This document shows, piece after piece, positions 3,364-23,698 of a DNA stretch of 24,470 nucleotides. Below the pieces are notes generated by a model, which was not told the DNA's origin, did not search any database, and was given only the letters and a program-made list of their open reading frames with translations. The DNA is taken from IMG/VR virus record IMGVR_UViG_2909272501_000001; one strand, written 5' to 3'. This DNA is from a virus (taxonomy: Duplodnaviria; Heunggongvirae; Uroviricota; Caudoviricetes). Each line of letters opens with the position of its first letter. Position 1 is the stretch's first letter. The translations under genes and the position numbers were made by a program.

Positions 3364-3377
3364 GGTGTTGTTCTCCT

Positions 3378-7853: not shown

Positions 7854-7888
7854 AATTCCCCGAAAATCCGCCCGTTTTTACTGAAAAA

Positions 7889-7972: not shown

Positions 7973-8017
7973 AGCGTGTCAGTGCAACTGCATTAAAACC
8001 GCCCCGCAAAGCGGGCG

Positions 8018-8036
8018 GGCGTGGCGGGGGGAGCAT
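8018..8036. other. cos-like site (candidate cohesive-end sequence)
   Basis: GGCGTGGCGGGGGGAGCAT matches 15 of 19 positions of the P2/P4 cohesive end as I recall it (GGCGAGGCGGGGAAAGCAC). It sits right after psu, where cos lies in P4, next to a GC-rich imperfect palindrome (7999-8019). Confidence 0.35.
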
Positions 8037-8118
8037 TGCGCGCTAAGGCTGATATTATAATTTTCTTTAATTCTATTTGGTATTTTGGCTTTATTCGTCA
8101 GAAGGAACGTTTAGAAAT

Positions 8119-8146
8119 AGACCACTACAATGGATTGTAGCGGTCT
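8119..8146 (-). terminator. Hairpin terminator candidate ending the int-RT-partner operon
   Basis: 12-bp inverted repeat AGACCACTACAA/TTGTAGCGGTCT (one G-U-compatible mismatch), 4-nt loop, ~10 nt downstream of the partner gene stop, followed by a modest T-rich tract on the minus strand. Confidence 0.4.
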
Positions 8147-8155
8147 GCATGATAT

Positions 8156-8896
8156 CTAGCGTTGCATTTCAGTTACTATGAAATTTTCTTCTGTAATAGA
8201 ATTCATTATCTCAAAGTACAATTCTTCAGGTTGAATAAACGCCAACTCTTTGCAAAGGTTGACAATGGTATCACTATAAGTGATACCCATCCGAGGATTG
8301 AAAAGCTCAAATCTCTTGATGTTTCTTTTGTTTTTTGAGTAAAAGTTTAAAGTGAAATATATTAGCACCTGTCTAAGATCGTAAACACTAAACTTCCTAT
8401 CTCCTGATTTTATTTCCACAAGAACATTTGAATAATAAATATCGCCATATGAATTATTTATTACTCCGCATCCATCGAATTGTGGAGACACTTCAATTTG
8501 GTTTTCCATTCCATATCGAGACAAAATGTTTCTTGCTATTTCCCTTATGGCATTGTACTCAACCATGCTTAAGGGTAGCTTGAAGTTAGAACCGTAAGCG
8601 AACCGCTGTAGATATTCTTTTGTTTTTTCAAAAACAACCTGAAAATCAGCATTATGGAAGATATCATGTGCTGAAAGAATATTTCTGTCTAACGAATCAT
8701 TCTGTATTGCCCTATATAAATTAAATGCGCACTCATTAACAAAGACGTTATTTGACCTATTAGCGCAGTCATCTAGAGGAGGATAAACGTCCTCGATGAG
8801 ACTGCCGTTAATGATGCGTATGAAATTATTAGCATTTGGAAGCAATTGATTCCAAAATGAAGTGAATTTTCGAGAAAACGTTAATTCAGATATCAT
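8156..8896 (-). CDS. Hypothetical 246-aa protein, partner of the reverse transcriptase; possible nuclease-like effector
   Basis: ATG overlaps the RT stop (ATGA at 8893-8896), with RBS GAGGA inside the RT 3' end. Very AT-rich. Segment GDIYYSNVLVEIKSG could be a D...ExK (PD-(D/E)xK-like) core, but this is unverified. Confidence 0.75.
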   Translation of the reverse strand: MISELTFSRKFTSFWNQLLPNANNFIRIINGSLIEDVYPPLDDCANRSNNVFVNECAFNLYRAIQNDSLDRNILSAHDIFHNADFQVVFEKTKEYLQRFAYGSNFKLPLSMVEYNAIREIARNILSRYGMENQIEVSPQFDGCGVINNSYGDIYYSNVLVEIKSGDRKFSVYDLRQVLIYFTLNFYSKNKRNIKRFELFNPRMGITYSDTIVNLCKELAFIQPEELYFEIMNSITEENFIVTEMQR

Positions 8897-10521
8897 AGCG
8901 CATCCTCAAGATTTCTTGCGGTATGCCTTTTACTTGCCCAATCCCTGTAAATCACCTCTACAAAGTTGAATGTTTTCTTATTATGCTCTCTCCAGTGCCG
9001 TCCTTCATCACCTAAGATGTAACTGGAAACGATCAATAGTCTTCTCTGCAACGGATGCATTGCAGAGAAATTTTTTTTGATATCAGAAAGCCATGCGTAA
9101 GAATTAATTTTTGCCATTGACTGTGTAACTATGTTCTTGACTAAGATGCTTTCTGGATTGTTATTGTATATTTCACTAAGGATTAGGGTGGATTTTTCTG
9201 AATTTTCTTTTGAGAGCATTCGGGCTACATAGGCTAAGTTGAGCTCAGTACTCAAAATATATGAATCTTGTTTAATTAGTGCAGTTATTTTATCAAGAAT
9301 AATATCTTTGGTTTCTGTGCTTAATTTTTGCCAGTTGGAGTTAGCTACTTGAATTATAGTTGTAAATATTGGATATAACTCATGCAAGTTATTAAACATT
9401 ACTTTGAAAGCACTACTTATTATTTCATCTGATGTTGCTGAGAATGCCTTTATCAAATGCTTGCTAAAAGATTGGTTAATTTTTGATTTTTGTAACTCAC
9501 TACTCAGCATAGCTAACAAGTCAAAATCTTTTAAAGATTCCTTTATCTCTTCATATTCCTCTATCGCATTTGCTGAGTAAGGATCGAATCTTATAGGAAG
9601 ACTCATAAATTTAGCCTTCATAGGAGATTCTTCATCTTCATCATTACCATGCAACTTAGCTTTAGTTACTGAAAGGAACTCTTCTTTAGTAACAATATTG
9701 GTTTTTTGTTTCTGTAAAGTTAGCCCTTCATTTTCCATCAGTTTTTTACTAAGCAAAGTTAAAATCTTATGAGCATCCTCTCTAGAGTTACAAAAAATAA
9801 CAAAGTCGTCGACATAACGCTTATAGTTGATTCTATTCATAGACAATAATTTATCAATAGAATCTAGAGCTAGTTCTGCTAATATTCTAGAGGCAGGACA
9901 TCCAACTGGTACTCCATATGATTTTGTTTCACTAAATGTCTGTAGTAATTTCTTGATTTTCCCAGAGTAATCTTTATTGGGGTCGACTCTATCTAACGCA
10001 TTTTCTAAACGGTGGTGATAAATACGCGGATAGAAATCTGCTATATCGCATGTAAGTACATACTTTATTTCATCGTTAGAACATTCAGAGATACTGTCTT
10101 CTTGATATTTTCTCCAAGAGATCTCTTTATCAAAAAGAGAACCATCAGCAAGGTTTGGTTTAAAGCGATATGAATAAACCTGCGTTTTAGTAGATCTATT
10201 CCTTTCAATATCATCAGCGATTTTTAAAACTAACCCAAGAAAAAAAGCATTCCAGAATGGATCAATTTGGGTCGCCCACCTGTAACCATAATAACCAATA
10301 CTTGAAAAGCTATTAATTATGTTTGGTGGAATCTCGATCCTTTTATTTTCAAAGTCATTAAATGTTTGCATTAATGCAGTTTTTACTTTCTCCTTATCAT
10401 CTTCAAATAACCGACTTTCAAATGGGTAAGGGAAAATATCTGTATCGCCGTGCTTTATAATATTTTCCAATGCAAGCTCAAAGCAATTTTCTAGTTTACT
10501 ACTATCAAACTCGTTACTCAT
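8893..10521 (-). CDS. Reverse transcriptase, 542 aa, with ~230-aa alpha-helical C-terminal extension; UG/Abi-like defence-associated RT candidate
   Basis: RT motifs in canonical order: LTCDIADFYPRIYHHRL (motif A-like), SYGVPVGCPASRILAELAL (motif B'-like), KRYVDDFVIF (YVDD catalytic motif C), NEGLTLQKQKTNIV (motif D/E-like). RBS AAGGAGA; start overlaps the int stop by 8 nt. No retron-type VTG motif seen. Confidence 0.85.
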   Translation of the reverse strand: MSNEFDSSKLENCFELALENIIKHGDTDIFPYPFESRLFEDDKEKVKTALMQTFNDFENKRIEIPPNIINSFSSIGYYGYRWATQIDPFWNAFFLGLVLKIADDIERNRSTKTQVYSYRFKPNLADGSLFDKEISWRKYQEDSISECSNDEIKYVLTCDIADFYPRIYHHRLENALDRVDPNKDYSGKIKKLLQTFSETKSYGVPVGCPASRILAELALDSIDKLLSMNRINYKRYVDDFVIFCNSREDAHKILTLLSKKLMENEGLTLQKQKTNIVTKEEFLSVTKAKLHGNDEDEESPMKAKFMSLPIRFDPYSANAIEEYEEIKESLKDFDLLAMLSSELQKSKINQSFSKHLIKAFSATSDEIISSAFKVMFNNLHELYPIFTTIIQVANSNWQKLSTETKDIILDKITALIKQDSYILSTELNLAYVARMLSKENSEKSTLILSEIYNNNPESILVKNIVTQSMAKINSYAWLSDIKKNFSAMHPLQRRLLIVSSYILGDEGRHWREHNKKTFNFVEVIYRDWASKRHTARNLEDAL

Positions 10522-11698
10522 TCACATTCTCCTTAATAAAAATATAATCTGAATACCACTGCATCATATCACGGCGTTTATCAATATATTGAGCATGATT
10601 ATACGTACCTCTAATATTATTCTTATCTATATGAGCAAGCTGTATTTCTATCCAAGCCGAATCATATCCTTTTTCGTGGAGGATAGTAGATAAGGAATGT
10701 CGAAATCCATGACCAGTAAGTTTTCCACCATAACCAATACGCTTGATAACTTGGTTAATACTCGCCTCACTCATAGGCTTGTTCGGATCGTTCCGCCCCG
10801 GAAAAACATAACTATACTTCCCTGTCATCATCTTGAGTTCATTTAGCAAATCTAACGCTTGAGTCGACAAAGGCACAAGGTGTGATCTGCGCATTTTCAT
10901 CCTTTCAGCAGGAATTTCCCAAATAGCGTTATCTAAATCAAATTCTGACCATAATGCCGCACGTAATTCGATGGTTCTAACACCTGTAATCATGAGCAAT
11001 TTCGTGGCAATCAGGACAAGCCGACTTCCGGTATATCCGTTTAAGGCGCGAAGAAAATCAGGTATCTCATTAGCCTTTAAGAACGGGAAATGATTTGATT
11101 GGTGTACATTGAGGGCGCTTGAAAGATCCGCAGCAGGGTTAAACTCAGCCCTTCCAGTAGCAATGGCATAGCGGAAAACTTCTGAGCATCGCTGCCGAAC
11201 TTTGCGCATTTTTTCTAATGCACCGCGCTTTTCGATTTTACGCAGCACATTAAGCAGTTCTAGCGGTTTAATCTCTCCCACTGGCCTTGTTCCCACATAA
11301 GGAAAAATGTCGTTCTTAAACGCTTCCATGATGTCTGATGCATATCCCGCCGACCATTTGGTAGACTTCTGTTGATGCCACTCTCTGGCTATCTTTTCGA
11401 AGGCGTTCTCTGACTCTGTTTGCAGAGCCAGCTTTTGCTCTTTTCGAACCTCACTAGGGTTCTTTCCTTCTGCCACAAGTTTTCGAGCTTCATCACGACG
11501 GGAACGAGCATCAGCAAGAGTGATCGTTGGGTAAACACCAAGCGAGATCATTTTGGGTTTACCGGCATAGCGATAACGAAATCGCCAGCTTTTACTTCCA
11601 TTTGGCTCTACAAGTAAAGACAACCCTTGCCCATCCCCAAGTGTATAGGCTTTAGCTTCAGGTTTAGCACGGCGAATCTGCATATCATTTAGGGGCAT
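10514..11698 (-). CDS. int: P4-type (DUF4102-family) tyrosine integrase
   Basis: 394 aa. N-terminal ...RRAKPEAKAYTLGDGQGLSLLVEPNGSKSWRFRYRYAGKPKMISLGVYP... is characteristic of P4/CP4-57-type integrases. Catalytic R...HxxR...H...Y residues (GVRTIEL, GHGFRHSLS, LAHIDKN..RGTYNHAQY). Confidence 0.88.
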   Translation of the reverse strand: MPLNDMQIRRAKPEAKAYTLGDGQGLSLLVEPNGSKSWRFRYRYAGKPKMISLGVYPTITLADARSRRDEARKLVAEGKNPSEVRKEQKLALQTESENAFEKIAREWHQQKSTKWSAGYASDIMEAFKNDIFPYVGTRPVGEIKPLELLNVLRKIEKRGALEKMRKVRQRCSEVFRYAIATGRAEFNPAADLSSALNVHQSNHFPFLKANEIPDFLRALNGYTGSRLVLIATKLLMITGVRTIELRAALWSEFDLDNAIWEIPAERMKMRRSHLVPLSTQALDLLNELKMMTGKYSYVFPGRNDPNKPMSEASINQVIKRIGYGGKLTGHGFRHSLSTILHEKGYDSAWIEIQLAHIDKNNIRGTYNHAQYIDKRRDMMQWYSDYIFIKENVNE

Positions 11699-11749
11699 GT
11701 GTATAGAATTCCAAAATCGAACAGGAACATATACATAATCCTATACACA
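11698..11749. repeat. Arm-type 9-mers near the int start: TGTGTATAG (11698-11706, inverted) and CTATACACA (11741-11749)
   Basis: Same 9-mer as at 613-633; the first copy overlaps the int start codon. Confidence 0.3.
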
Positions 11750-11861: not shown

Positions 11862-11881
11862 ATGGTGCCGATAATAGGAGT
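11862..11881. repeat. Right copy of the imperfect direct repeat; candidate att core shared by both elements
   Basis: ATGGTGCCGATAATAGGAGT, see 537-556. The first 9 nt (TGGTGCCGA) resemble the reverse complement of a tRNA 3' end, but no T-arm follows. Confidence 0.5.
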
Positions 11882-12023
11882 AAAACACTCGATTAATCTC
11901 GTGTTAATGCCATCACCTACGACCATTACTAATTGATTGAATCTGATAGAAAAATTATCATTTTCTATACCTTACAATCAATTTACACATTACAAACGCT
12001 CCGACACTTTAGCCGGAGATTTT

Positions 12024-13301
12024 ATGAGATACAAGCCTAACCAATACTTAATCTGTGATTCTTACGGTAACTACTATTTAAGGATCACGCTGCCTGTGTA
12101 TATGCAGCCCTTTTTTGAAGGAAAAAGGACGTTTGTCAGAAGTCTACACACAAGTAATCTTCGTGTGGCACGTCGAAAGCGTGATCAGATTGCAGATGAA
12201 TACCATTGCTTACGGGAGAGTGTTGCCCCTGTAAACAGCACAATAGAAAACACGCTGGAACTGTTACGCAGTAAGGCTAAATACGCCAAAACAGCTACCA
12301 GAATGCAAGATACAGCGTCTTCGTGTCCGTCATTGCTTAAAATTCTTGAAATCTACCTGACAATTAACAGCACGAAGAAGAAGCCAGCCACTTTAGCTAA
12401 GGCAAGAAAAGCGGTAGAGATGTTTCTCTCCTACCGTAAAAAGCCTGATATTGCATTGCAAGATGTAAGCCGCACCACTGTTACAGGCTGGATTGAACAC
12501 ATGCAAAAAACCCTTTCACAACAATCAATTGCAAATTATATCAGCCCAATGGTCCAGCTATGGGAGTTAGCTTCATCACGTTACCACGATGCGCCAGAAA
12601 GGGCGCTCTCCCCCTGGCGAGGGCATAGGCTTGATGTGGCACAAAGTAGAGAGAGCTACGAGGCATTTTCTAACAAAGAGCTATTGCAGGTGTTGCAAGT
12701 ATTTTCCGGTGATTCAGCAGAAAACAAAGAAATGACGGCTTTGTGTCTTATCGGTTTATATACAGGTATGCGGATCAATGAGATAGCAAGTATCACAATA
12801 GACGATGTGAAAGAGATCGAAGGTGTGCTGTGTTTTGAAATCACACAGGGAAAAACGAAAGCTGCGGCACGTCTTGTGCCTGTGCATAACCTTATCACTC
12901 CGTTGGTGTTGTCGCTGCGTGAAAAGCCTCACAATGGCTTTTTGTTCTATCACGCCAGCATTACAGAACGTGCTGACGGTAAACGCTCTACGTGGCATAC
13001 ACAACGATTTACAAGAGCTAAACGAAAGGCTTTAGGGGAAAAGGGAACAGAAAGGAAAGTGTTTCATTCTCTGAGACACGGAGTAGCACAGCTTCTTGAT
13101 CGAAATCAAATTCCAGAAGACAGGATCGCCCTTCTCCTGGGCCATACACGCGGCAATACAGAAACATTCCGCACATATAGCAAGAATGCAGCTTCTCCAG
13201 TAGAGCTTAAAAAATATATTGAGCTTTTACGCTACCCTGAAATAGAGAAAGGCTTATCAATCAATAAAAAATCAAATTTAAGGCGTAAAACAACGCCATA
13301 G
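12024..13301 (+). CDS. Second tyrosine recombinase/integrase (425 aa from the ATG at 12024; track ORF begins at a TTG at 11937)
   Basis: Catalytic signature GMRINEI (R), FHSLRHGVAQ (HxxR), LLGHT (H), TYSKN (Y). RBS GGAG 5 nt before the ATG. AT-rich. Confidence 0.75.
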   Translation: MRYKPNQYLICDSYGNYYLRITLPVYMQPFFEGKRTFVRSLHTSNLRVARRKRDQIADEYHCLRESVAPVNSTIENTLELLRSKAKYAKTATRMQDTASSCPSLLKILEIYLTINSTKKKPATLAKARKAVEMFLSYRKKPDIALQDVSRTTVTGWIEHMQKTLSQQSIANYISPMVQLWELASSRYHDAPERALSPWRGHRLDVAQSRESYEAFSNKELLQVLQVFSGDSAENKEMTALCLIGLYTGMRINEIASITIDDVKEIEGVLCFEITQGKTKAAARLVPVHNLITPLVLSLREKPHNGFLFYHASITERADGKRSTWHTQRFTRAKRKALGEKGTERKVFHSLRHGVAQLLDRNQIPEDRIALLLGHTRGNTETFRTYSKNAASPVELKKYIELLRYPEIEKGLSINKKSNLRRKTTP

Positions 13302-13381: not shown

Positions 13382-14059
13382 CTATTGTTTAAATACTGGC
13401 GTTACAACGTCTTGCCCTGGGCTTTTTTGATTTTTCTGTTCTGTTGTATTTACCTGCATTTTAACCTGTCCCCCTACAGATTTATTTGGTGCTGTTTTTA
13501 CAGCAATAGCATTAGTGGTGGCCTTAGAGACAAGACGAATTTGCTCAAAATCAAGAGTAAACAATAAGCTTTCGCTTGCTTCTTCTTCGTAAGACATGCC
13601 AACTAACACAACGTTGTCATAATTTTTTAACTCAGTGACAAGTAGGAAAGGTTGGCGACTGTCCATCAACTGATTTAGGTATTCAAGCATAAGCATACGT
13701 CGATTGCCGTTAATTCCCGCATTCTTAATCATATCGGGATTGAGTTTCAATACGGTTTCAGAGATACGCCCCTGTAATGTGAACTTGTTATTCCGTATTT
13801 GAACATGATCACTAACTTCTGATCCTGATTCGACGGCATAGCTTGTAACGTCTGCATTTCGGCTAACTTTCGTCGATTCCACGTTATCAAATGATAATGC
13901 CCGGTAGTCATTGTAAGCAGCATTTGCACCACTGCCGAGGTTAGAGGTAATAATCGCAAAGCCGTTACCCCCTTTAGTTGTTCTACCGTTGCTATCGTTG
14001 CTTGTGCTGTTGATTTTCGCCTCAGTCGGGCGACCAATGGTTAACGGACCCATTGCCAT
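13382..14059 (-). CDS. Hypothetical protein, 225 aa (possible virion-associated protein)
   Basis: ORF with RBS AAGGA; last gene of a co-oriented leftward block that includes capsid-like candidates. No recognisable motif. Confidence 0.45.
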   Translation of the reverse strand: MAMGPLTIGRPTEAKINSTSNDSNGRTTKGGNGFAIITSNLGSGANAAYNDYRALSFDNVESTKVSRNADVTSYAVESGSEVSDHVQIRNNKFTLQGRISETVLKLNPDMIKNAGINGNRRMLMLEYLNQLMDSRQPFLLVTELKNYDNVVLVGMSYEEEASESLLFTLDFEQIRLVSKATTNAIAVKTAPNKSVGGQVKMQVNTTEQKNQKSPGQDVVTPVFKQ

Positions 14060-14106
14060 AATTTGTAATCCTTATTTAAGGGGGCTAAACAGCCCCACAG
14101 TGATGA

Positions 14107-15948
14107 TTAATAGGTTGACCCGCCTGACATAACACCCAGCGTTAATAGCTTGCTAAACTCAGCGGAGGATGCCTTTGATTTGAAGTCGATAAATTCGCTC
14201 AATCGTCCGGTGTCTGATTCGATAGTTAGCGGCACTTCTGCATTTACTTGTAATTCTGGATTGAAGTTAATAACAGGTGCAAAGGTGTAAGAAGGAGTCT
14301 TGATAGCTTGTTGTGCTGCACTCTGTTTCAGATTTGCAATGTTTTGTCCTTCGAGAGTGTATTGATTTACAGCCTGCGCCCCGCCTACCGTTTCTTCTGG
14401 CGTAAACCAGCCTTTAATAGTGTTAAACAGGGAATTGCTGTTATCTGGCTTAGTTGTTCCGGTGCCAGCGCCTTTATATTGATCAGGAACGAGATTAGAA
14501 AGATTCTGTTTCATCCCTTCGTTAGACAGTGGCGGTGCATCACCTAAATTCTTCTGAATAGCTTCCGTCTTCTCGTCGTTTTTCATCAGCCAGTTGATTG
14601 CTTTCATTACGGCGTTAACCAATCCGCCGATAGCCTCGCCTAATTTGGTAAACATTGGCAGCATTGCAACCATACTCTTTTTGAACTCTTCAATCACAGC
14701 AGGATCGAGAGATTTCATAAAGCCATCAACAAAGGCGATCCCTTGTGAGTCAGAAAGCCCACTAAGTGCATTATTCAGTTCACGGAATTTAATAACGCTT
14801 TCCTGTTGTGCCTGTGTTACCCAGCGCCCTGATTCTCGTTGTTCTCGTGCTGATTGTTCCACTTCTTTAGCGGAGCGTGTCCAGTATTTAGAGGTGAGCA
14901 TCAAATCATCAGCCAGATCTTCCAGACGACTACCGATTTGTGCATCTGAATAGCCTTTAGCTACCATTCCCTGAACTGCTTTACTAACCAGACCAGCCGG
15001 ATTATCAGCAAAGTCTTTTAGATCCTTTTTAGTTAGGAATCCTTCATTCATTAAAGTATTGATGCCGCTATCGCCGCCCTTCCATTCTCCTTTACCAGTT
15101 TTCTTATCAACTACATATTCAGCTTCATCATAAGATTTGGTTGCACGTTCACGCACATCTTTCATCTGATCCAGATACTTACGTTTACCTTGTTCGCCCA
15201 TCATTGAATCAACGCCGTTTTTATACGCCCATTGTTCAACATCGTTCATCTGGTTAACGTCTACACCGCCCAGCTTCGCACGGCTATACAATTCACCCAG
15301 CGTTTCAGCATTCGCAAAGCTGTTAGTAACAAATTCAGAGGCTTTGCTCATAGCCATATACGTAGCGCCAGCGCCTAAGCCACCCAGCATAACAGCCGCA
15401 GCACCGCCGCCAATACTCCCGCTACCCTTAACAGGTGCATAGGCTTTAGCGTGAGCGTTACGATTGCCATTAATCTTACGTTGTTGCTGTTGTAGGCGTT
15501 TCATTTGGCTATTCATACGTGCCAGACTAATAGCGCCTCTTTCATATTGGAGGGCAATTTCTCTAGCCTGTGCAATAGCTTTATATTGTTCCGCTACAGA
15601 AAGACGGTGCATTGCACTAATGCTTGATCCAACGTCTAAAAGCTTTAATTCTGCCTTCTCTTTGCGTGCTGCCAGGGCTTTTTGTTCTCTTGCAACTACA
15701 CGTTGAGCGGCTAATTGTGCTTTAGCATTGGCTTTATCTGCCTGTGCTTGCTTTTTAGCAATATCGTCTACGTCTTTTTTTGCTTTAGCGGTTGATTGTT
15801 TATGTGTCTTAACACGCAATTCTATATCTTTCACCGCCGCCATTTGTTTACGAAGTTTTTCTACTTCTGCTTTTGCTTTCTCTAATGATGGTCGATCAAC
15901 CTGGAAGGTGACAACGTTTGATAAGCGGCTGACGTTAAGTTCTAACAT
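14107..15948 (-). CDS. Large coiled-coil / Gly-rich protein, 613 aa; tape-measure-like or other minor virion structural protein candidate
   Basis: N-terminal ~170 aa is Lys/Ala/Gln-rich with heptad-like periodicity, followed by a Gly-rich hydrophobic segment (GSIGGGAAAVMLGGLGAGATYMAM) and then a globular region. RBS AGGGA. Confidence 0.55.
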   Translation of the reverse strand: MLELNVSRLSNVVTFQVDRPSLEKAKAEVEKLRKQMAAVKDIELRVKTHKQSTAKAKKDVDDIAKKQAQADKANAKAQLAAQRVVAREQKALAARKEKAELKLLDVGSSISAMHRLSVAEQYKAIAQAREIALQYERGAISLARMNSQMKRLQQQQRKINGNRNAHAKAYAPVKGSGSIGGGAAAVMLGGLGAGATYMAMSKASEFVTNSFANAETLGELYSRAKLGGVDVNQMNDVEQWAYKNGVDSMMGEQGKRKYLDQMKDVRERATKSYDEAEYVVDKKTGKGEWKGGDSGINTLMNEGFLTKKDLKDFADNPAGLVSKAVQGMVAKGYSDAQIGSRLEDLADDLMLTSKYWTRSAKEVEQSAREQRESGRWVTQAQQESVIKFRELNNALSGLSDSQGIAFVDGFMKSLDPAVIEEFKKSMVAMLPMFTKLGEAIGGLVNAVMKAINWLMKNDEKTEAIQKNLGDAPPLSNEGMKQNLSNLVPDQYKGAGTGTTKPDNSNSLFNTIKGWFTPEETVGGAQAVNQYTLEGQNIANLKQSAAQQAIKTPSYTFAPVINFNPELQVNAEVPLTIESDTGRLSEFIDFKSKASSAEFSKLLTLGVMSGGSTY

Positions 15949-17769: not shown

Positions 17770-17967
17770 TTATTTTCCTTTCAGTTGTTTAATTTTAGAT
17801 TTAAGGGCATCAGCAAGACTAACCGCATCAGCCGATTTAAATAATTGAGCAGTGGTAGAACGAAGACTTTCGGGAGTAACTCCCAACAGTGCGGCAACCT
17901 TAATGAGGTTTTCATCACTAACAATCATCGTTTCCCCGTCTTTGCTGATAATCATTTCTTGTTTCAT
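17770..17967 (-). CDS. Small hypothetical protein (65 aa from the ATG with RBS AGGAAC; track ORF extends to 18009)
   Basis: ORF with plausible RBS; first gene of the leftward structural-like block. Confidence 0.3.
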   Translation of the reverse strand: MKQEMIISKDGETMIVSDENLIKVAALLGVTPESLRSTTAQLFKSADAVSLADALKSKIKQLKGK

Positions 17968-18948
17968 AAATAACGTTCCTGTTAGTGCCAGACAAATAAA
18001 AAGCCCCAATGCCGTAAGAGGTTCTGACCAGCAAAGGGGCTTTAACGTGCGGGCAATTACATAATTGATAAGTTAAACTATAAGAGGATTAAACATATCA
18101 GCAAATACACTTTTTAAATATACTTGATGATATGCTTAAAGGGTGAATAGATACTCCTGAAAACATGCTCTTAAGAAAACATGCGGAATCAATCAGGAAT
18201 ATCTATTCGGGGCGCGGTGGCTAACCGCTATCTTTCATGGTGTGGATGCACCAGTCAGATTTTAAGGAATCACTATTCCAATCTACTCACAGATTAAATT
18301 TTTAATAAGGATTAACTACACCAACAGTAATCTACCGTTTCAGAAAATCGTTTCACAACCAAAGATTATAGATCCGCATTCTATAAAACCCGTTTTGCTA
18401 TCAATATTTCCAAAGTTTATTGCACCATTCTTAGCTAAACTCTCTCTACTTGCGGCTAACGCTATGCAGATGATAGTTTTTTGACAACAACTTAATAGAT
18501 TATTCTGTTACTAACTTCCGTCATTAAATAAGAGTTTAATGATGTTAGTAAATAGTTATAAAATATAACTATCAGTGTAAGGCTCTTTAATGTTTTCGGA
18601 CAAAATAAGGAGCTTTAGGATAAGCATAGATGAAAAATAAGAGCGGGAAGGGCAAGGAGATAACACCTACCCGCTTTTATCAAAAATTAAGCACAATGCC
18701 TAACAACATTCATCAACACAACGTAGAAACAATCAACAATCAAAGAGGGAGTTATGATTATTCTAAAACTTCTTGATAGATGGAAGGTAATATTTGTTAG
18801 AGGTTAATGCCACTCAACCTTTGAGGCTATCACCTTCCATATGCAGGGATTTATGACAGTAGAAGGATTAACACCAACTAAAATCTTTTAATCTACCCCT
18901 AAAATTATTATATAACAAAATCATCATAAATGCAAATGATTTTCATTA

Positions 18949-19251
18949 TCATTTAGAGAAAATAGCACTTTTTGCTAAATCATTTACTAATTGCTGAATC
19001 TCTTCACTTGCAGCCTTTAACGTGCTGGCGGTGTCTGTGATGGTTTGAGTGCACATCTTGGCATCTGATAGCTCTAAATCGCTCACCAGAGAGACAAAAT
19101 CTTCTAAGCATACATTGAGCTTCATTAAGCTAATAACGCATTGAGAGAGCGTATAATCGCATAAATCTGAATAGGCTTGATTTATTCTTGTTTGTAGTGA
19201 GATAGTCAGATCTAAAAGTTGTTCCATTGCATTGCTAATATCTTCTTCCAT
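18949..19251 (-). CDS. Hypothetical acidic helical protein, 100 aa
   Basis: ORF; start ATG overlaps the stop of the upstream 81-aa gene. Confidence 0.4.
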   Translation of the reverse strand: MEEDISNAMEQLLDLTISLQTRINQAYSDLCDYTLSQCVISLMKLNVCLEDFVSLVSDLELSDAKMCTQTITDTASTLKAASEEIQQLVNDLAKSAIFSK

Positions 19252-19496: not shown

Positions 19497-19511
19497 ACGC
19501 CCGTCTTTCTA

Positions 19512-19892
19512 TTAGTTAGAACGTTTGTTAGATGCGAGAGTGTCGATCAGGTGCTGCATCAGATCTGTTTCTGTAACGCCGCCTACCTGATTGTTGAACG
19601 AATTGAAGCCTGTATAGTGACGAAATGAGGTAAAGCCTAACAATTGCCATTTCTTCAATGTGCCAGGTTCTATAATCGTTGTCTTTCTTGTTCTGGGTTT
19701 GAAATACACACCATCACCCATTGATTGAATAATTTCTAATTCTTCGTTTGTAAGTGGTGGGCTGTTAGATTCTAAAATGAAGACTATCTCTTCACCTGCT
19801 TCTTCATTATTCTTATAAACTTGCTTTCTTACGTCGTTGAAGGTGTTCCCTTGCTCAATACGTTTTAAGTTGTTCTTTTTCTTTCTTCCCAT
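19512..19892 (-). CDS. Hypothetical protein, 126 aa, basic N-terminus
   Basis: ORF with RBS GAGGGA; N-terminal MGRKKKNNLKR. Confidence 0.45.
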   Translation of the reverse strand: MGRKKKNNLKRIEQGNTFNDVRKQVYKNNEEAGEEIVFILESNSPPLTNEELEIIQSMGDGVYFKPRTRKTTIIEPGTLKKWQLLGFTSFRHYTGFNSFNNQVGGVTETDLMQHLIDTLASNKRSN

Positions 19893-20026
19893 TTTCCCTC
19901 TTTTTATGTGGATTATAAAAACTGAATGCCATAGTTACGATGAATATTGCTACAAATGCACTTGCCATATGTATTGCCCGATCTGTTGTTACTGATTGTT
20001 TGTGATGTTATAAATCATTTATTTCC

Positions 20027-20596
20027 TTAAAAGGGTAGTGAATCATATATTGTGCTCTCACTTTTGAGATCAATTATCAAAGAGTCAAAATCATTTTCAC
20101 AAAGATAGATATTCTTTGAATCTAATGCTCGTTTTACAAAATCTTCTGTTTCTTCGTGCGGTGGTTTCTTCTTATCAAGGGAAAGAAGCCAAGTAAAAAT
20201 TTCGGGCCGCTCAGGGAACTCTGGCTCTTGTGTTTCTTCTTCAACGATGATTTCGGAAACATTCAATATTTCATTAGATTCGTCTTCTTTCTCAGAAGGA
20301 TCAGGTAGTGATGATTCTCCTTTTGGAATATCAAGCACTCGATAAAGGTTAGAGCTTCCTGGTCGTGCATCTTTTATAATTAATCCCATTTCGAGCAATT
20401 TCTTAACCCTTTCTTCTGCTGCTCTTGGTGTTATGCCAAAAACATCGCCTATCTTAGCGTAAGAGGGAAATGCACGATCAAACCCTCTCAGATAGCAGTA
20501 AAGGTTTTTAGCACTATCTGTAAATTTATGCCCGTTTACTTGGCTTATTTTTAGAATCCACATAGGAACTTTTACAAATTGTTCTTCATTAATCAT
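20027..20596 (-). CDS. Winged-helix DNA-binding protein, 189 aa from the ATG at 20596; replication initiator / replisome-organiser-like candidate
   Basis: RBS AAGGAGA 5 nt before the ATG. Segment NLYCYLRGFDRAFPSYAKIGDVFGITPRAAEERVKKLLEMGLIIK resembles wHTH initiator N-domains. Acidic C-terminal half. Same operon as an RHH protein and downstream of the iteron cluster. Confidence 0.5.
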   Translation of the reverse strand: MINEEQFVKVPMWILKISQVNGHKFTDSAKNLYCYLRGFDRAFPSYAKIGDVFGITPRAAEERVKKLLEMGLIIKDARPGSSNLYRVLDIPKGESSLPDPSEKEDESNEILNVSEIIVEEETQEPEFPERPEIFTWLLSLDKKKPPHEETEDFVKRALDSKNIYLCENDFDSLIIDLKSESTIYDSLPF

Positions 20597-20649
20597 TAAA
20601 AATCTCCTTGATGTAATCACGCTCTACGGCGCTACTATGGTGATAAAAA

Positions 20650-20820
20650 TCACTTGCTTTTGTTTGAGAGTGTTTCAGCCTCTCTTTTCAACATATCAAG
20701 AATGTAATCTGTAACAGTGATACGTTTACTTCTGGCTTCTTTAAACAACACCTGAAATACTTCATCAGGAATATGAAAGCAAGTGCGTGGTTGCCTTTTC
20801 TTTTCTGTAGTTTCGCTCAT
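20650..20820 (-). CDS. Ribbon-helix-helix (CopG/Arc-like) DNA-binding protein, 56 aa from the internal ATG
   Basis: Strong RBS AAGGAGA before the ATG at 20820. Sequence KRQPRTCFHIPDEVFQVLFKEARSKRITVTDYILDMLK fits the RHH beta-strand-helix-helix pattern. Confidence 0.55.
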   Translation of the reverse strand: MSETTEKKRQPRTCFHIPDEVFQVLFKEARSKRITVTDYILDMLKREAETLSNKSK

Positions 20821-20839
20821 AGTTTTCTCCTTCTCTTCT

Positions 20840-21040
20840 TTACTCTGTTTCAGATTCTTTTTCAGATCCTTTTTCATTTTTTCTTAATTCATCAATAATT
20901 TTTAGTGCATCGTCAAAGCATTTTTCACGCTCTGGATAACCACAGCGTCGCGCTGTGTTCCTGTTCATCCTTACTTTAAAACGGTTGATCTCACCACGTT
21001 TCCAGGCTTCCACAATATCCTGTGGAGTGAAATATTTCAT
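20840..21040 (-). CDS. Hypothetical small protein, 66 aa
   Basis: Strong RBS AGGAGG before the ATG at 21040; first gene of the leftward operon below the iteron region. Confidence 0.45.
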   Translation of the reverse strand: MKYFTPQDIVEAWKRGEINRFKVRMNRNTARRCGYPEREKCFDDALKIIDELRKNEKGSEKESETE

Positions 21041-21883
21041 TAATTAACCTCCTATTCTATTTAGTTAAAAGAAATAGACACCTTGCAAGCCTTGGGCTTC
21101 AAAGTGCGATGCATTGGTTTAATTATTTAAAGGATAAGAATGTTTTCCTGCCCCTAATATTACTTTACCACGACTAAAGGCTTTTGTCAACCCCCCAGCC
21201 ATAAAAATATTGATCATTTTCAGTGTGTTATGATTTTTCTTAGCAATTCGTGCTCTTACGAATACTCCAATTCTTCATTATTGTCTAAAACGCTCTAAAA
21301 CGCGTTCTAACGAGGTTTTGATAAAAACAATACATTCCCTTATGTAATGGCTGTTTAGCTCGCCTACGGTTTGATTTAAGCGGTAGAAACTCATCTACTA
21401 CCTAACATCTTTAAACCATATTTTTCTTTTTTGTCTGTTTGATGGTTGATCTATAGTTATGCGTTAGCATCCCCAAAGGGGTAACGCTACCCTAATTGCA
21501 TTCGCAAGAACATTGCACAAGAAATTTATTTTAGATGATTGATGATCGTTAGATGGTAGTTAGTTAATTATCGTTCTGCGCACAGCGCAAGACTATTTAG
21601 CCTTACGCAAGCCGTAGGCTATTTGCACATAGTAGATTACATATTCGTTGTGAGCGGAAAGCGAACATAGATCTACTAACTAACATTAACAAACAAAAAC
21701 TATGTGTTATGAGAAGTATCAGTCTAACTGACTAACACTCTAACTTGTGCAAGGTTCTGGCGAATGCCAATAGATTAAGGGATAGTCGAAGACTCCCTAA
21801 CGGGTATCCCTATAATTATTCTTTAAAGATAAAAGAATTTATAAAAGATAATTTAATTGTAGTTTGATAGTTGATCTAATAGG

Positions 21884-22021
21884 TAACAAAATTCTGTAGG
21901 GGTGGCTAACAGTTTTCTGTGGGGGTGTCTAACATAATTCTGTTAGGGTTGGGGTAACAGTTTTCTGTTAGGGTGCATATTTCTTTAAAAGTTAAGGATA
22001 ACAGAATTCTGTGGGGGTAGC
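21884..22021. repeat. Iteron cluster: five ~23-bp direct repeats, consensus TAACA(n)3TTCTGT(n)GGGGT
   Basis: Copies begin at 21884, 21907, 21930, 21955 (tandem, 23-25 bp spacing) and 21999 (after an AT-rich spacer), upstream of the operon containing the RHH and wHTH genes. Confidence 0.6.
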
Positions 22022-22854
22022 TCACAGTGACCTACCGTTACATCCATCACATAACATCTGTGCAATGATCTTCTTATAATCAGTAAAAGTCTTTCTTGCT
22101 ATCAAAAATTAAACATCTAAAACAAGCTTAAATTCAAGATTAATTGATGATTAATCCCTGTGTAATTCCATACTAAAAAATCCAAGAAAAATGGCTTCAA
22201 AATGCAATTCTTACTTTCTTCACTTTTGCGTCATCATCAGCAAAGCCTTATGTTATGCGGCATATAGCGCATCACTGCAAAATTGTTGCTCAATAAACGT
22301 TCTATCATTTGTTGAACAAGTTCTTTCACGTGTTGAAAATTTATGTTTAAATTTGCTTTCAATCTTTAATGTGCAATCACTATCAACATAAAAATAAAAA
22401 ATCTTCTATTATATTTCATAGCATACAAAAGTCAATAGAAGCCCTCTCGTGCTCCTACGTAAAAAATCCACCATTTTTCCCCTGATACATCAACTCAAGG
22501 CGTTCTATGTGTTCCTTAGTGCATATTACGATTATTATGTTAAATGTATTTTGGCCTATATTTTGACCTGCACCCGCATAAACACTGGTTTCATCGCTTA
22601 CAGCCCTTGTGAGACGTGGTGCTGTTTCTAGCATCTGATCCGACATAAAACCGATCATTCTCGTGTTTAGTGAAAGTTTAGTGAGAGACATTACAGAAAG
22701 GCTTTCTGTGTAATGATTTAATAGGTAAAAACGATGTTGATTACGCAAGAAAATTCCTTGCTGATATTTGGGGATTCTGGATTTTCCAGATCGGGGGGCG
22801 CTGAAAATCGCGTTAAGCACCTCTCGCAATCTAGCCATAAGGGAGGGGATTCAT

Positions 22855-22929
22855 ATGTATTTAGATGTATTTATAGCTATTTATGGCTATTTATTTTTTA
22901 TTTACCTTTATTTGAAAACAACCTTATAA
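22855..22929 (+). CDS. Candidate 24-aa hydrophobic peptide MYLDVFIAIYGYLFFIYLYLKTTL
   Basis: ATG 5 nt after a strong SD (AAGGGAGGGG). Very short, so a coding call is tentative. Confidence 0.25.
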   Translation: MYLDVFIAIYGYLFFIYLYLKTTL

Positions 22930-23146
22930 ATCAATAAGATACAGAACAACCTGTTTATATTTTAATCACTTAAATTACGTTTAATACCCTTAAATCACCT
23001 GAAAATAACCTTAAATACCCCAATAATTAATTTTAACGATTCCTGTGCTCTCTTCTACATTGCAAAAAGGCAAAAAAAGCCCATAGAGGCACAAAAATAT
23101 TAAAACCAATAACTCAATAATGCCTCTACAAGAGCTTCTCTAACTG

Positions 23147-23698
23147 TTATTTTTGATTGAGCTTACATCGATCCCATTGTTCTGTCGTTCTTGTGATACG
23201 ATCGCTTATTGCAAAATTTAATAGCCAAGAATCATAAGCATAAACCTTGCTTTTATCATCTGCCATCATAAACTTGCCGTTAGCATTCAGTTTTGGCGAT
23301 ATCAAATATGTTCCATTTAATCTGTTAGCCTTGAAGCTATCTGCATATAAAGTTACTTGTGCGTATCCCTGAACACGTAATGCCCCTAAACGTCCGTTTT
23401 CGATTGATGCAATAGAGTATTGGCAAAGATAATTTTTGGCAGCAGGAGTCGTTTTCACTCCTTCAGTTTTTCGTGAATTATTTGATTGCGAGCTTCGAAT
23501 AGAGGATGAAGGATAAGAGTATGAATGATTTTTATAAGATGAAGGGGCATAAGAGCCAATCCGGCACGTCTTACCAACAGCTATACACGAGTTACCACAA
23601 GGTATTCCTTTTTTGCAGTTTTTAGCAACTGCGGTAGAAGTTCCCCCTACAAACAACGTTGTAAAAATCATCATCCTCACAAATGCAGACCTGCGCAT
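23147..23698 (-). CDS. Secreted Cys-rich protein, 183 aa
   Basis: N-terminal signal-peptide-like segment (MRRSAFVRMMIFTTLFVGGTSTAVA), then a 4-Cys cluster (CKKGIPCGNSCIAVGKTC), a Ser/Tyr-rich linker and a C-terminal domain. Confidence 0.55.
   Translation of the reverse strand: MRRSAFVRMMIFTTLFVGGTSTAVAKNCKKGIPCGNSCIAVGKTCRIGSYAPSSYKNHSYSYPSSSIRSSQSNNSRKTEGVKTTPAAKNYLCQYSIASIENGRLGALRVQGYAQVTLYADSFKANRLNGTYLISPKLNANGKFMMADDKSKVYAYDSWLLNFAISDRITRTTEQWDRCKLNQK

What the first reader, a model, noticed from the sequence alone, without database searches (positions are those of the whole stretch)
20027..22021. Iteron-type replication module in the second element
Five ~23-bp direct repeats (consensus TAACA...TTCTGT.GGGGT) lie upstream of a leftward operon encoding a strongly initiated 66-aa protein, an RHH repressor-like protein and a wHTH initiator-like protein with an acidic tail. 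This is the organisation of an autonomous iteron origin with its initiator and copy-control regulator. Together with the integrase it suggests an integrative element that can also replicate, such as a phage satellite or phage-plasmid.
Basis: partly seen in the sequence, partly recalled or inferred. Interest (0 to 1): 0.5.

Follow-up and report, generated by a model that had tools for sequence, protein, structure and literature searches.

The report
Iteron replication origin of E. coli phage satellite
The five repeats are almost certainly the binding sites of the neighbouring 189-aa DNA-binding protein and most likely form the replication origin of a 13-kb phage satellite inserted at the thrW tRNA gene of E. 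coli; some lytic phages carry near-identical copies of that DNA-binding domain fused to a predicted nuclease, which points to an arms race.

Summary
Five same-oriented 20-nt repeats lie at 21884-22018, spaced 23/23/25/44 bp, each with the core ACAGwwTTCTGT. None are expected by chance. Leftward genes encode 66-aa, 56-aa and 189-aa proteins.

The repeats are the cognate sites of the 189-aa protein's N-terminal winged-helix domain. In 12 related loci, four domain types (A-D) each pair with their own 22-23-bp semi-palindromic repeat at the same position (12/12). The RHH-like protein, the C-terminal half and the flanks do not track the repeats. An ~80% A+T tract adjoins every aligned array.

The domain hits phage replication-initiator families. 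Its model sits nearest DnaD-NTD and RepA_N initiators, including the Vibrio satellite PLE's RepA, but only marginally above generic wHTH regulators.

The protein has no helicase or primase domain. Most relatives end in an acidic [I/L]PF tip resembling the SSB C-terminus.

The host element (11862 to ~25096) is a thrW-integrated island. Its Dit-like and 613-aa proteins resemble adjacent genes of lytic phage Mt1B1_P17. Four related phages fuse copies of domains A, C or D (86-100% identical) to a predicted endonuclease, like ICP1 Odn.

Verdict: iteron replication module supported. "Autonomous" and "RHH copy control" are not.

The parts
21884..22018 (+). Array of five type-A iterons (21884-21903, 21907-21926, 21930-21949, 21955-21974, 21999-22018). 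Consensus TAACAGAATTCTGTGGGGGT; each has the inverted core ACAG-wwTT-CTGT.
   Evidence: The same array lies beside type-A N-domains in L006, L007 and L020.
21812..21880 (.). A+T-rich tract of about 70 bp (about 80% A+T) abutting the gene-proximal side of the iterons. Candidate DNA-unwinding element.
   Evidence: composition; an A+T-rich tract adjoins the array in all nine aligned sequences, including L006/L007, whose neighbouring spacer is unrelated.
20027..20596 (-). 189-aa initiator-like protein. N-terminal wHTH domain at aa 1-93 (20318-20596), disordered acidic linker at aa 94-131, three low-confidence helices, and a C-terminal tip ...TIYDSLPF (20030-20053).
20650..20820 (-). 56-aa protein, possibly ribbon-helix-helix. 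Probably a transcriptional regulator of unknown target; it is not the iteron reader.
   Evidence: PHROG 582 Arc-like repressor E 0.0018 only; no Pfam, NCBIfam or PDB match. Its allele is uncoupled from the iteron type. Near-identical DNA copies lie upstream of the chimeric nuclease gene in phages inny and muut.
20840..21040 (-). 66-aa protein with a strong RBS; first gene of the leftward operon. A homologue was found in most related loci; function unknown.
   Evidence: no family match.
21162..21190 (-). Best sigma-70-like promoter for the leftward 66-aa / 56-aa / 189-aa operon (TTGACA-17-TAAAGT with TG).
   Evidence: consensus scan only. The TTGTCAA motif is conserved in the alignment.
21440..21800 (.). 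Hairpin-rich spacer between the operon promoter and the origin, closed by a 30-bp inverted repeat (21492-21521 / 21744-21773). Role unknown.
   Evidence: inverted repeat I1. RNA fold z -7.9 on the minus strand and -5.5 on the plus strand. An unrelated sequence at the same place in L006 is equally structured, z -6.3 and -7.0. No Rfam match.
22017..22036 (-). Single type-B iteron copy (GGTAGGTCACTGTGAGCTAc, 1 mismatch) at the distal edge of the type-A array. Also present beside type-C arrays. Likely a recombination scar or a shared site.
22120..22350 (.). Conserved non-coding block distal to the iterons, shared by the backbones examined. Contains GTGTAAT and TGTGCAAT motifs. Role unknown.
11862..11881 (+). 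Copy of the 3' end of thrW (ATGGTGCCGATAATAGGAGT) next to the integrase gene (11937-13301). The other copy lies in the tRNA just beyond the window end (about 25076). Together they bound the ~13.2-kb element that carries the module.

Best explanation
The finding is the replication module of a ~13.2-kb integrative phage satellite inserted at thrW.

Proposed mechanism. The leftward operon makes a 189-aa initiator. Its N-terminal winged-helix domain, of the RepA_N / DnaD-NTD type, binds (probably as dimers) the five semi-palindromic iterons at 21884-22018. The 23-bp spacing puts the bound proteins on one face of the helix. The adjoining ~70-bp A+T-rich tract is then the place where the duplex opens.

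The initiator has no helicase or primase. I propose that its disordered acidic C-terminal half, ending in ...YDSLPF, imitates the C-terminal tip of SSB (DDDIPF). That tip would bring an SSB-tip-binding replisome or primosome protein of the host or of the helper phage to the opened origin.

Replication is therefore probably conditional: it would follow excision during infection by a phage of the Stephanstirmvirinae, rather than being plasmid-like.

Status of each step. Shown by comparison: the pairing of domain and repeat. Inferred: origin function, DNA opening at the A+T tract, recruitment through the tip, and helper dependence.
For: 1) Specific pairing. Four N-domain types (A-D) each have their own 22-23-bp semi-palindromic repeat array of 3-9 copies at the same position in 12 loci, 12/12 concordant. 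There is one array per locus. Proteins that share only the N-domain share the iterons: window versus L006/L007 (different C-terminal half and different spacer) and Franconibacter L020 (different element). The RHH allele, the C-terminal half and the flanks vary independently.

2) Origin anatomy. The repeats are same-oriented and in helical phase, with a flanking ~80% A+T tract that adjoins the array in all nine aligned sequences.

4) Conserved tip. 24 of 43 family representatives of at least 140 aa end in P[FW], mostly [I/L]PF after acidic residues, and 3 more end in EAF. Further relatives end in DDIAF or DDIVF. The preceding linker is not alignable, which is the same pattern as in SSB.

5) Satellite context. 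The element has att repeats and an integrase. Its Dit-like protein is 53% identical to a protein of phage Mt1B1_P17, and its 613-aa protein is 29% identical (53% at the N-terminus) to the product of the adjacent phage gene.

6) Phage counter-part. Phages Mt1B1_P17, inny, muut and BI-EHEC encode wHTH-X + wHTH-C + a predicted endonuclease domain. X is type A (100% over 95 aa; 98.9% nt over 355 nt) in Mt1B1_P17, type D (97.5%) in inny, and a further type in muut; BI-EHEC's protein is 90.5% identical to Mt1B1_P17's. The complete Mt1B1_P17 genome has no A-D iteron. This is the architecture of ICP1 Odn, which cuts the PLE origin at its iterons (PMC8263062).
Confidence: 0.72

Rival explanations
1. 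Operator array. The wHTH protein is an ordinary transcription factor (MarR, ArsR or LexA-like) and the repeats are its operators. They would control read-through transcription across the non-coding region or a switch of the satellite, and would have no role in replication.
For: Databases name the protein 'transcriptional regulator' or 'ArsR family'. LexA and MarR-type folds score almost as well as RepA_N / DnaD. A strong promoter-like site at 22435-22408 (minus strand, 11/12) reads toward the array. The protein has no helicase or primase.
Against: The profile hits are to replication initiators, not regulators. Five phased same-oriented repeats next to a conserved A+T tract are not a typical operator. 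No iteron core lies at the operon's own promoter. The conserved SSB-like tip has no obvious role in a repressor.
Confidence: 0.1
2. Packaging or partition site. The repeats are a pac or centromere-like site, and the wHTH protein is a small-terminase-like or centromere-binding adaptor. Its C-terminal tail would recruit the helper's large terminase or a motor.
For: A satellite needs packaging specificity, and no terminase gene was recognised in the element. Small terminases and centromere binders are wHTH proteins that read repeat arrays. TubR and AspA appear low in the sequence and fold hit lists. A phage nuclease aimed at a pac site would also cripple a satellite.
Against: There are no terminase or ParA/ParM-type matches; the PHROG and fold neighbours are initiators. 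The A+T tract and the SSB-type tip point to replication. Franconibacter carries the same module in an island with no recognisable structural genes.
Confidence: 0.08
3. Fully autonomous replicon. The module alone, using only host proteins, maintains the excised element as a plasmid (a phage-plasmid-like lifestyle).
For: The tip resembles the E. coli SSB tip, so host PriA, DnaG or chi could in principle suffice. SaPI and P4 replicons work without a helper once they are expressed (stated in PMC7145576).
Against: All copies seen are integrated: chromosomal at two insertion sites (thrW, and a second site next to a LysM/M23 peptidase gene), or inside large plasmids. No stand-alone plasmid in PLSDB carries it. 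The protein has no helicase or primase, and its analogue PLE RepA is not sufficient without phage.
Confidence: 0.07

Closest known systems
PLE RepA / PLE ori of Vibrio cholerae, and the ICP1 origin-directed nuclease Odn (PMC7145576, PMC8263062)
   Same: A satellite of a lytic myophage. The initiator has a RepA_N-type DNA-binding N-domain and no helicase or primase. The iterons are semi-palindromic and lie in a long non-coding region. The N-domain and iterons are exchanged as a module between elements. The phage encodes a chimera of that N-domain with a T5orf172/GIY-YIG-type nuclease.
RepA_N plasmid initiators of Gram-positive bacteria (pSK41, pTZ2162; PDB 4pta, 4pt7, 5kbj)
   Same: They are the best structural neighbours of the N-domain. 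They bind semi-palindromic direct repeats. They have a two-part design: a DNA-binding N-terminal domain plus a host-specific C-terminal domain thought to recruit host proteins.
   Different: The Pfam RepA_N model is not matched. The host is Enterobacterales. In RepA_N plasmids the origin is usually inside or next to the rep gene (from memory). Here the C-terminal part is mostly disordered and ends in an SSB-like tip.
Lambdoid O protein / ori-lambda and phage 'O-like' or DnaD-like initiators
   Same: PHROG 'replication initiation O-like' families are hit at about 1e-5. They have a wHTH N-domain that reads about four phased repeats next to an A+T-rich tract, and a C-terminal part that recruits the helicase loader (established knowledge).
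   Different: Pfam Phage_rep_O is sub-threshold (E 0.014, and only in the type-C domain of the phage chimera). Here the origin is not inside the gene. No P/DnaC-like loader gene is adjacent.
Classical iteron plasmids (RepE of F, pi of R6K, TrfA of RK2, RepA of pPS10)
   Same: Arrays of about 22-bp direct repeats in phase next to an A+T-rich unwinding element, each with a cognate initiator.
   Different: Those initiators have two winged-helix domains (Rep_3 fold), usually have DnaA boxes at the origin, and autoregulate through inverted half-iterons at their own promoter (established knowledge). None of these three features is present here.
SaPI/PICI Pri-Rep and P4 alpha origins
   Same: Satellite-encoded initiators that read satellite-specific iterons flanking an A+T-rich region.
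   Different: Those proteins carry primase and helicase domains (stated in PMC7145576). This one has neither. The P4-like satellite in the same window (1-11.7 kb) has its own 777-aa ORF at the expected position for the alpha protein.
SSB C-terminal tip (E. coli ...MDFDDDIPF)
   Same: A disordered, poorly conserved acidic linker ends at the very C-terminus in acidic residues followed by [I/L]-P-F. Examples here are ...YEDFDIPF, ...IYDSLPF and ...EEFELPF.
   Different: It is attached to a sequence-specific dsDNA-binding domain rather than an OB fold. Some alleles have few acidic residues (the window protein's last 12 residues contain only 2). No binding to any partner has been tested.

Membership tests
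RepA_N-type initiator / iteron replicon (Pfam PF06970; includes PLE RepA) | N-terminal DNA-binding domain with the RepA_N / DnaD-NTD winged-helix fold | tested here: inconclusive
RepA_N-type initiator / iteron replicon (Pfam PF06970; includes PLE RepA) | Match to the family's sequence profile | tested here: not met
   No RepA_N hit at E <= 0.1 in Pfam for the 189-aa protein. The best hit is HTH_36 at 19.9 bits, below the cut-off of 25. PLE RepA was also assigned to the family by structure and not by BLASTP similarity (PMC7145576).
RepA_N-type initiator / iteron replicon (Pfam PF06970; includes PLE RepA) | Semi-palindromic direct repeats (iterons) recognised specifically by the N-domain | tested here: met
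   All four repeat types contain inverted sub-repeats (ACAGAA/TTCTGT; TCAC-T-GTGA; AGGAA..TTCCT; GTAACG..CGTTAC) and co-vary 12/12 with the N-domain type. Physical binding was not tested.
RepA_N-type initiator / iteron replicon (Pfam PF06970; includes PLE RepA) | The protein and repeats drive replication | not testable with these tools
   Needs replication assays.
Classical iteron-plasmid Rep (Rep_3: RepE, pi, TrfA) | Two tandem winged-helix domains; Rep_3 profile match | tested here: not met
   One wHTH domain followed by a disordered region. No Rep_3 hit.
Classical iteron-plasmid Rep (Rep_3: RepE, pi, TrfA) | DnaA boxes at the origin, and inverted half-iterons at the rep promoter for autoregulation | tested here: not met
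   No TTATNCACA with at most 1 mismatch in 21000-22500. The iteron core occurs only in the array.
Classical iteron-plasmid Rep (Rep_3: RepE, pi, TrfA) | Phased direct repeats of about 22 bp next to an A+T-rich tract | tested here: met
Lambda O-type initiator (Pfam Phage_rep_O) | Profile match, with the origin repeats inside the initiator gene | tested here: not met
   Phage_rep_O reaches only E 0.014 (16.4 bits, cut-off 28.7), and only in the type-C domain of the phage chimera. PHROG O-like families score about 1e-5. The repeats lie 1.3 kb outside the gene.
Satellite replicon targeted by a phage origin-directed chimeric nuclease (PLE / ICP1 Odn type) | The phage protein shares the satellite initiator's DNA-binding domain and carries a GIY-YIG/T5orf172-type nuclease domain | tested here: met
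   Mt1B1_P17 QNJ49226 has aa 1-95 100% identical to the window protein (98.9% nt over 355 nt), followed by a type-C domain. Its C-terminus (aa 230-326) hits PHROG 681 'endonuclease' at 2.4e-18. Pfam MUG113 scores 21.2 bits (cut-off 22.3) and T5orf172 15 bits (cut-off 20). tblastn finds annotated homing endonucleases of T5-like phages. The nuclease fold could not be modelled.
Satellite replicon targeted by a phage origin-directed chimeric nuclease (PLE / ICP1 Odn type) | The nuclease cuts the satellite origin in an iteron-dependent way and rescues the phage | not testable with these tools
   One indirect point: the complete phage genome has no A-D iteron with at most 4 mismatches of 20, so any cognate site lies outside the phage.
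PICI/SaPI or P4-like satellite replicons | Initiator with primase and/or helicase domains (Pri-Rep, alpha) | tested here: not met
   The protein is 189 aa, and no such domain appears in Pfam, PHROG or NCBIfam.
SSB-C-terminal-tip motif | The extreme C-terminus has acidic residues followed by a hydrophobic residue, Pro and Phe, after a disordered linker | tested here: met
   The window protein ends ...TIYDSLPF; relatives end ...YEDFDIPF...EEFELPF...DDDDLPW. 24 of 43 representatives end in P[FW]. The linker is disordered in the model.
SSB-C-terminal-tip motif | Binds SSB-tip client proteins (PriA, chi, DnaG and others) | not testable with these tools
   No complex prediction or binding assay is available.

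The most novel reading that the evidence does not exclude
This module may belong to an undescribed family of E. coli satellites of virulent Stephanstirmvirinae phages; at least part of the 3.1-kb stretch around it occurs in 725 of 5,426 complete E. coli genomes. Its helicase-less initiator would start replication by presenting an SSB-C-terminus-like tip at the origin, recruiting an SSB-tip-binding primosome or replisome protein of the host or the helper. This would be a new way for an origin-binding protein to load a replisome. The helper phages would have answered by repeatedly capturing initiator DNA-binding domains (types A, C, D and a further type) onto a homing-endonuclease domain. That would be a second, independent 'origin-directed nuclease' arms race, and the first in E. 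coli.
Probability: 0.35. Interest if true: 0.85.

Novelty: new variant of a known kind. Interest (0 to 1): 0.68.

Why it matters
If correct, three things follow.

1. E. coli would gain a tractable counterpart of the Vibrio PLE/ICP1 system. It would offer a satellite of lytic myophages with exchangeable initiator/iteron cassettes and matching phage-encoded chimeric nucleases, all available in sequenced strains and in isolated phages (Mt1B1_P17, inny, muut, BI-EHEC).

2. It addresses an open question raised in the PLE work (PMC7145576): how a RepA_N-type initiator that lacks a helicase and a primase recruits a replisome. The conserved SSB-like tip gives a directly testable answer.

3. There are practical consequences. 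These elements could affect the host range of Stephanstirmvirinae phages, which are considered for therapy. The four orthogonal domain/iteron pairs could also serve as engineering parts.

Tried and rejected
- Rfam. A gathering scan of the whole window found only the C4/isrK RNAs of the P4-like element. E-value scans of 20900-23200 and 17950-19000 found nothing credible.
- DnaA boxes and IHF consensus in 21000-22500: none.
- RHH as the iteron reader: rejected, because the same allele sits beside iteron types A, B and D. The RHH allele also does not track the promoter-region variant.
- Partition system: no ParA/ParM-type gene was found in the element.
- Iterons in the phage. None lie within 4 kb of the chimeric gene, and none in the whole 151,202-nt genome. 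The phage protein is therefore not the phage's own origin binder at such sites.
- Stand-alone plasmids with this Rep: none. PLSDB gave four hits. The two inspected are satellite-like islands inside large plasmids, one record is chromosome-sized, and the fourth is near-identical to an inspected one.
- PDB sequence search with the family profile: only generic wHTH matches at E >= 0.014. NCBIfam: nothing.
- AF2 of the phage chimera P0057. Both wHTH domains were modelled, but the nuclease domain was not (pLDDT below 40), so it was unusable for a fold search.
- Homologue search with the nuclease domain alone returned nothing.
With a narrower one it gave a single locus, in Franconibacter.
- Covariation in the 21440-21800 spacer was not attempted, because the relatives are either nearly identical or unalignable there.
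- Literature. Six searches for a description of this element, or of satellites of Stephanstirmvirinae, found none in the held library. One search for SSB-tip mimicry by initiators also found none. That is absence from this library, not proof of novelty.
Full report
OBSERVATION. The repeats are real. The repeat finder reports five copies starting at 21884, 21907, 21930, 21955 and 21999, spaced 23, 23, 25 and 44 bp. Four match TAACAGAATTCTGTGGGGGT with at most 3 mismatches. These are the only matches in the 24.5-kb window, and 100 shuffles gave none. The fifth copy has 4 mismatches by my reading. Each copy contains the inverted core ACAG-wwTT-CTGT, and that core occurs nowhere else in the window (8 strand hits against 0.68 expected).

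The three leftward genes exist as described. The 66-aa gene is 20840-21040 and has an AGGAGG ribosome-binding site. The 56-aa gene is 20650-20820. The 189-aa gene is 20027-20596.

First, the array is 844 nt from the first start codon and about 700 nt beyond the best promoter-like site (21190-21162, minus strand). Second, the 'RHH' label has only a weak PHROG hit behind it (E 0.0018), with no Pfam, NCBIfam or PDB sequence support.

CONTEXT. The window is E. coli chromosome next to thrW and proA. Positions 1 to about 11.7 kb hold a P4-like satellite: C4 and isrK RNAs, a P4-type integrase and a reverse-transcriptase gene.

The finding lies in a second element. A 20-nt copy of the thrW 3' end sits at 11862-11881, and the other copy is in the tRNA gene just past the window end, so the element is about 13.2 kb. 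It encodes:
- an integrase with DUF6538 plus Phage_integrase domains;
- a Dit-like protein;
- a 613-aa protein that hits a PHROG tape-measure family;
- a capsid-like protein (a weak PHROG major-head hit here, Phage_cap_E in relatives);
- small genes of unknown function.

Parts of the 19500-22600 stretch occur in 725 of 5,426 complete E. coli genomes, and the whole stretch occurs in 68. Relatives sit at thrW or at a second site, next to a LysM/M23 peptidase gene.

THE KEY EVIDENCE: CO-VARIATION. I fetched loci that encode diverged homologues of the 189-aa protein. The protein is modular, with four N-terminal domain types:
- A: MINEEQFVKVPMW...
- B: MINQPTFTK...
- C: MIKNIKTIAEAK...
- D: MSKIKLIREK...

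These are joined to interchangeable C-terminal halves. At the same position upstream, each type has its own array of 3-9 direct repeats of 22-23 bp:
- A: ACCCCCACAGAATTCTGTTA
- B: GGTAGGTCACTGTGAGCTAGGG
- C: ACCTAGGAAATGAGTTCCTACCT
- D: TGGTAGTAACGATnCGTTACAT

All four repeat types contain inverted sub-repeats. A scan of every locus with all four consensus sequences gives 12/12 concordance, with one array per locus (with L003 typed).

Three cases show that the N-domain, and nothing else, tracks the repeats. L006 and L007 share only the N-domain with the window protein (86% identity): their C-terminal half differs and their spacer is unrelated, yet they have the same type-A iterons. Franconibacter helveticus carries a type-A domain (87% identity) with type-A iterons in a much smaller island that has no recognisable structural genes. 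By contrast, one and the same RHH allele lies beside arrays of types A, B and D, so the RHH-like protein is not the iteron reader.

ORIGIN ANATOMY. In the multiple alignment the array is a variable cassette between conserved flanks. On the gene-proximal side lies an A+T-rich tract of about 70 bp (window 21812-21880, about 80% A+T). Such a tract adjoins the array in all nine aligned sequences, including L006/L007, where the neighbouring spacer has been replaced. On the distal side, type-A and type-C loci keep a single type-B repeat copy (window 22017-22036). There is no DnaA box (at most 1 mismatch) and no IHF consensus. No iteron core lies at the operon promoter.

THE PROTEIN. PHROGs places residues 20-126 in 'replication initiation protein' (phrog_270, 1.2e-8) and in several 'replication initiation O-like' families (about 1e-5). 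Pfam gives only a sub-threshold HTH_36 hit for type A. The type-C domain passes that model (43.6 bits).

An exhaustive search of 1.84 billion cluster representatives found only 52 related clusters. Named relatives come from Escherichia, Shigella, Klebsiella, Serratia and Raoultella.

A CONSERVED C-TERMINAL TIP. The C-terminal halves of the family cannot be aligned with each other, yet 24 of 43 representatives of at least 140 aa end in P[FW]. Most of these are [I/L]PF preceded by acidic residues. Three more end in EAF, and further relatives end in DDIAF or DDIVF. Examples are ...IYDSLPF (window)...YEDFDIPF...EEFELPF and ...DDDDLPW.

This is the design of the bacterial SSB C-terminus: a disordered linker followed by DDDIPF. 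That hexapeptide is known to mediate SSB's interactions with other proteins, DnaG among them (abstract of PMC5872125). That PriA and the chi subunit of Pol III are also clients is from my own knowledge. I infer that the tip recruits a replisome or primosome component to the origin. This step is not shown.

THE PHAGE CONNECTION. A tblastn search of 50,697 phage records found the N-domain in lytic Stephanstirmvirinae phages. Mt1B1_P17 protein QNJ49226 (328 aa) has three parts:
- a type-A domain, 100% identical over 95 aa and 98.9% identical in DNA over 355 nt, including 41 nt upstream of the ATG;
- a type-C domain, 86% identical;
- a C-terminal domain.

The C-terminal domain hits PHROG 681 'endonuclease' (2.4e-18), comes just under the Pfam MUG113 and T5orf172 thresholds, and resembles annotated homing endonucleases of T5-like phages.

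Phage inny carries D (97.5%) + C + the same nuclease domain. Phage muut carries a further domain type + C + nuclease. BI-EHEC resembles Mt1B1_P17. Phages inny and muut also carry the satellite's RHH gene at 96-100% DNA identity just upstream. The complete Mt1B1_P17 genome contains no A-D iteron with at most 4 mismatches of 20. None of the chimeras has the SSB-like tail.

This is the architecture of ICP1 Odn. Its N-terminus is 42% identical to the PLE1 RepA_N domain, its C-terminus is a T5orf172 domain, and it cuts the PLE origin only when the iterons are present (PMC8263062). In PLE, too, the initiator and origin are exchanged between elements as a module.

Independently, the satellite's Dit-like protein is 53% identical to a Mt1B1_P17 protein, and its 613-aa protein is 29% identical (53% over the first 34 residues) to the product of the adjacent phage gene. 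I conclude that the element is most likely a satellite of this phage group. I also conclude that these phages and satellites have exchanged initiator DNA-binding domains, very recently in at least two cases. The direction of transfer and the nuclease activity are not shown.

MECHANISM AND CONFIDENCE.
- Shown by comparison: the N-domain and the repeats are a specificity pair (about 0.9).
- Inferred: the array plus the A+T tract is the satellite's replication origin (about 0.7).
- Inferred: replication depends on a helper or on induction rather than being plasmid-like. Every copy seen is integrated, and no stand-alone plasmid among 72,556 PLSDB records uses this protein.
- Inferred: the tip recruits the replisome (about 0.4).
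- Inferred: the phage chimeras are anti-satellite nucleases (about 0.6).

RIVALS. An operator array for a transcription factor, and a packaging or partition site, are both compatible with the co-variation and with the phage chimeras. They fit less well with the initiator-family matches, the conserved A+T tract and the SSB-type tip.

UNEXPLAINED.
- The spacer at 21440-21800 is exceptionally structured on both strands (z -7.9 and -5.5). The unrelated sequence that replaces it in L006 is just as structured (z -6.3 and -7.0).
- A conserved block at 22120-22350 and a strong promoter-like site at 22435-22408 lie distal to the array.
- Positions 21284-21326 share 36-44 nt at about 91% identity with non-coding DNA of T5-like phages.
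- A second ORF-free stretch, 18010-18948, looks like a structured-RNA gene.

NOVELTY. An iteron origin with a RepA_N-like initiator in a satellite is a known kind (PLE). The new points are the host, the element family, the SSB-like tip and the two-headed phage chimeras. I found no description of any of them in the held library, but absence from one library does not prove novelty.

Noticed in passing
L011:4001-4987 (phage Mt1B1_P17 MT496970 20722-21708); L017:238-1341 (phage inny); L016:199-1197 (phage muut); L012 (phage BI-EHEC): Lytic Stephanstirmvirinae phages encode chimeras of two satellite-type initiator DNA-binding domains (A+C, D+C, or a further type+C; 86-100% identical to the satellite proteins) fused to a predicted homing-endonuclease-type domain. 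They lack the SSB-like tail. This is the same design as ICP1 Odn. The complete Mt1B1_P17 genome contains no cognate iterons.
   Followed up: yes
window 20030-20053, and the C-termini of family members P0003-P0190: The initiator family ends in an acidic stretch followed by [I/L]PF at the extreme C-terminus, after a non-conserved disordered linker (24 of 43 representatives end in P[FW]). This resembles the SSB C-terminal tip DDDIPF.
   Followed up: partly
window 18010-18948 (minus strand): A second ORF-free stretch of the satellite. It starts with a conserved sigma-70-like promoter (18936-18907). Its RNA fold z-score is -6.7, and 34 of 247 predicted pairs show compensatory double changes across 8 satellites. 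It has no Rfam match. It is a candidate structured non-coding RNA of about 0.9 kb. The L006/L007 backbone has only about 350 nt here.
   Followed up: partly
window 21440-21800: A hairpin-rich spacer between the operon promoter and the origin, closed by a 30-bp stem (21492-21521 / 21744-21773). Fold z-scores are -7.9 and -5.5. An unrelated but equally structured sequence occupies the same place in L006/L007, and it shares small motifs (CTGCGCACAGCGCAA, GTGAGCGGAA). It could act as RNA or as single-stranded DNA; the role is unknown.
   Followed up: partly
window 21284-21326: TCTAAAACGCTCTAAAACGCGTTCTAACGAGG..., upstream of the operon promoter, matches non-coding DNA of T5-like phages over 36-44 nt at about 91% identity (Klebsiella phage KPN4, E 2e-5; Salmonella phage Sw2 terminal repeat). 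A TTTTGTCAACCCC motif recurs near it in both the window and KPN4. It is absent from phage Mt1B1_P17.
   Followed up: partly
window 22017-22036: One type-B iteron copy is retained at the distal edge of type-A and type-C arrays in several loci. It may be a scar of cassette exchange or a site shared by all types.
   Followed up: partly
window 22120-22460: A conserved non-coding block with repeated GTGTAAT and TGTGCAAT motifs; 4 of the window's 7 TGTGCAAK sites fall in 21512-22377. A near-consensus promoter-like site (TTGACT-16-TATAAT, 22435-22408, minus strand) reads toward the iterons.
   Followed up: no
window 13382-15948, and L014:27699-30515: The satellite's Dit-like protein (53% identical) and its 613-aa tape-measure-like protein (29% identical; 53% at the N-terminus) are homologues of two adjacent genes of phage Mt1B1_P17. 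The 343-aa capsid-like protein has only a marginal match to the phage (E 0.13). The satellite appears to bring its own versions of two phage tail components.
   Followed up: partly
L017:18-200 (inny_185) and L016:1-147 (muut_153): Phages inny and muut carry, just upstream of the chimeric nuclease gene, DNA 96-100% identical to the satellites' 55-aa RHH-like gene.
   Followed up: partly
L020:3526-9157 (Franconibacter helveticus LMG 23732): A minimal island made of a resolvase, type-A iterons, an RHH-like gene, an initiator (tail ...GRFGIPF), two small genes and a DUF6538-type integrase. It has no capsid or tail genes, so the replication module travels between different element backbones.
   Followed up: partly
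L014:5862-6794 (phage Mt1B1_P17 SSB): The phage SSB contains the E. coli-like tip PPMDFDDDIPF, but it is followed by 15 further residues (APIGLQYGRNFLHCF).
   Followed up: no
window 1-11700: A P4-like satellite sits in tandem at the same att site. It has C4 antisense and isrK RNAs (4814-5099), a 777-aa ORF at the position of the alpha protein, a P4-type integrase (10514-11698) and a cargo of a reverse-transcriptase protein (8893-10521) plus a 246-aa protein (8156-8896), which may be a defence system.
   Followed up: partly
L023 (Klebsiella pneumoniae plasmid NZ_CP084170) and L024 (E. coli plasmid NZ_CP126938): Related satellite-like islands (recombinase, small genes, HTH protein, capsid protein) are inserted in large plasmids. 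In the Klebsiella version the HTH protein is only 140 aa and is followed by a 263-aa protein.
   Followed up: no
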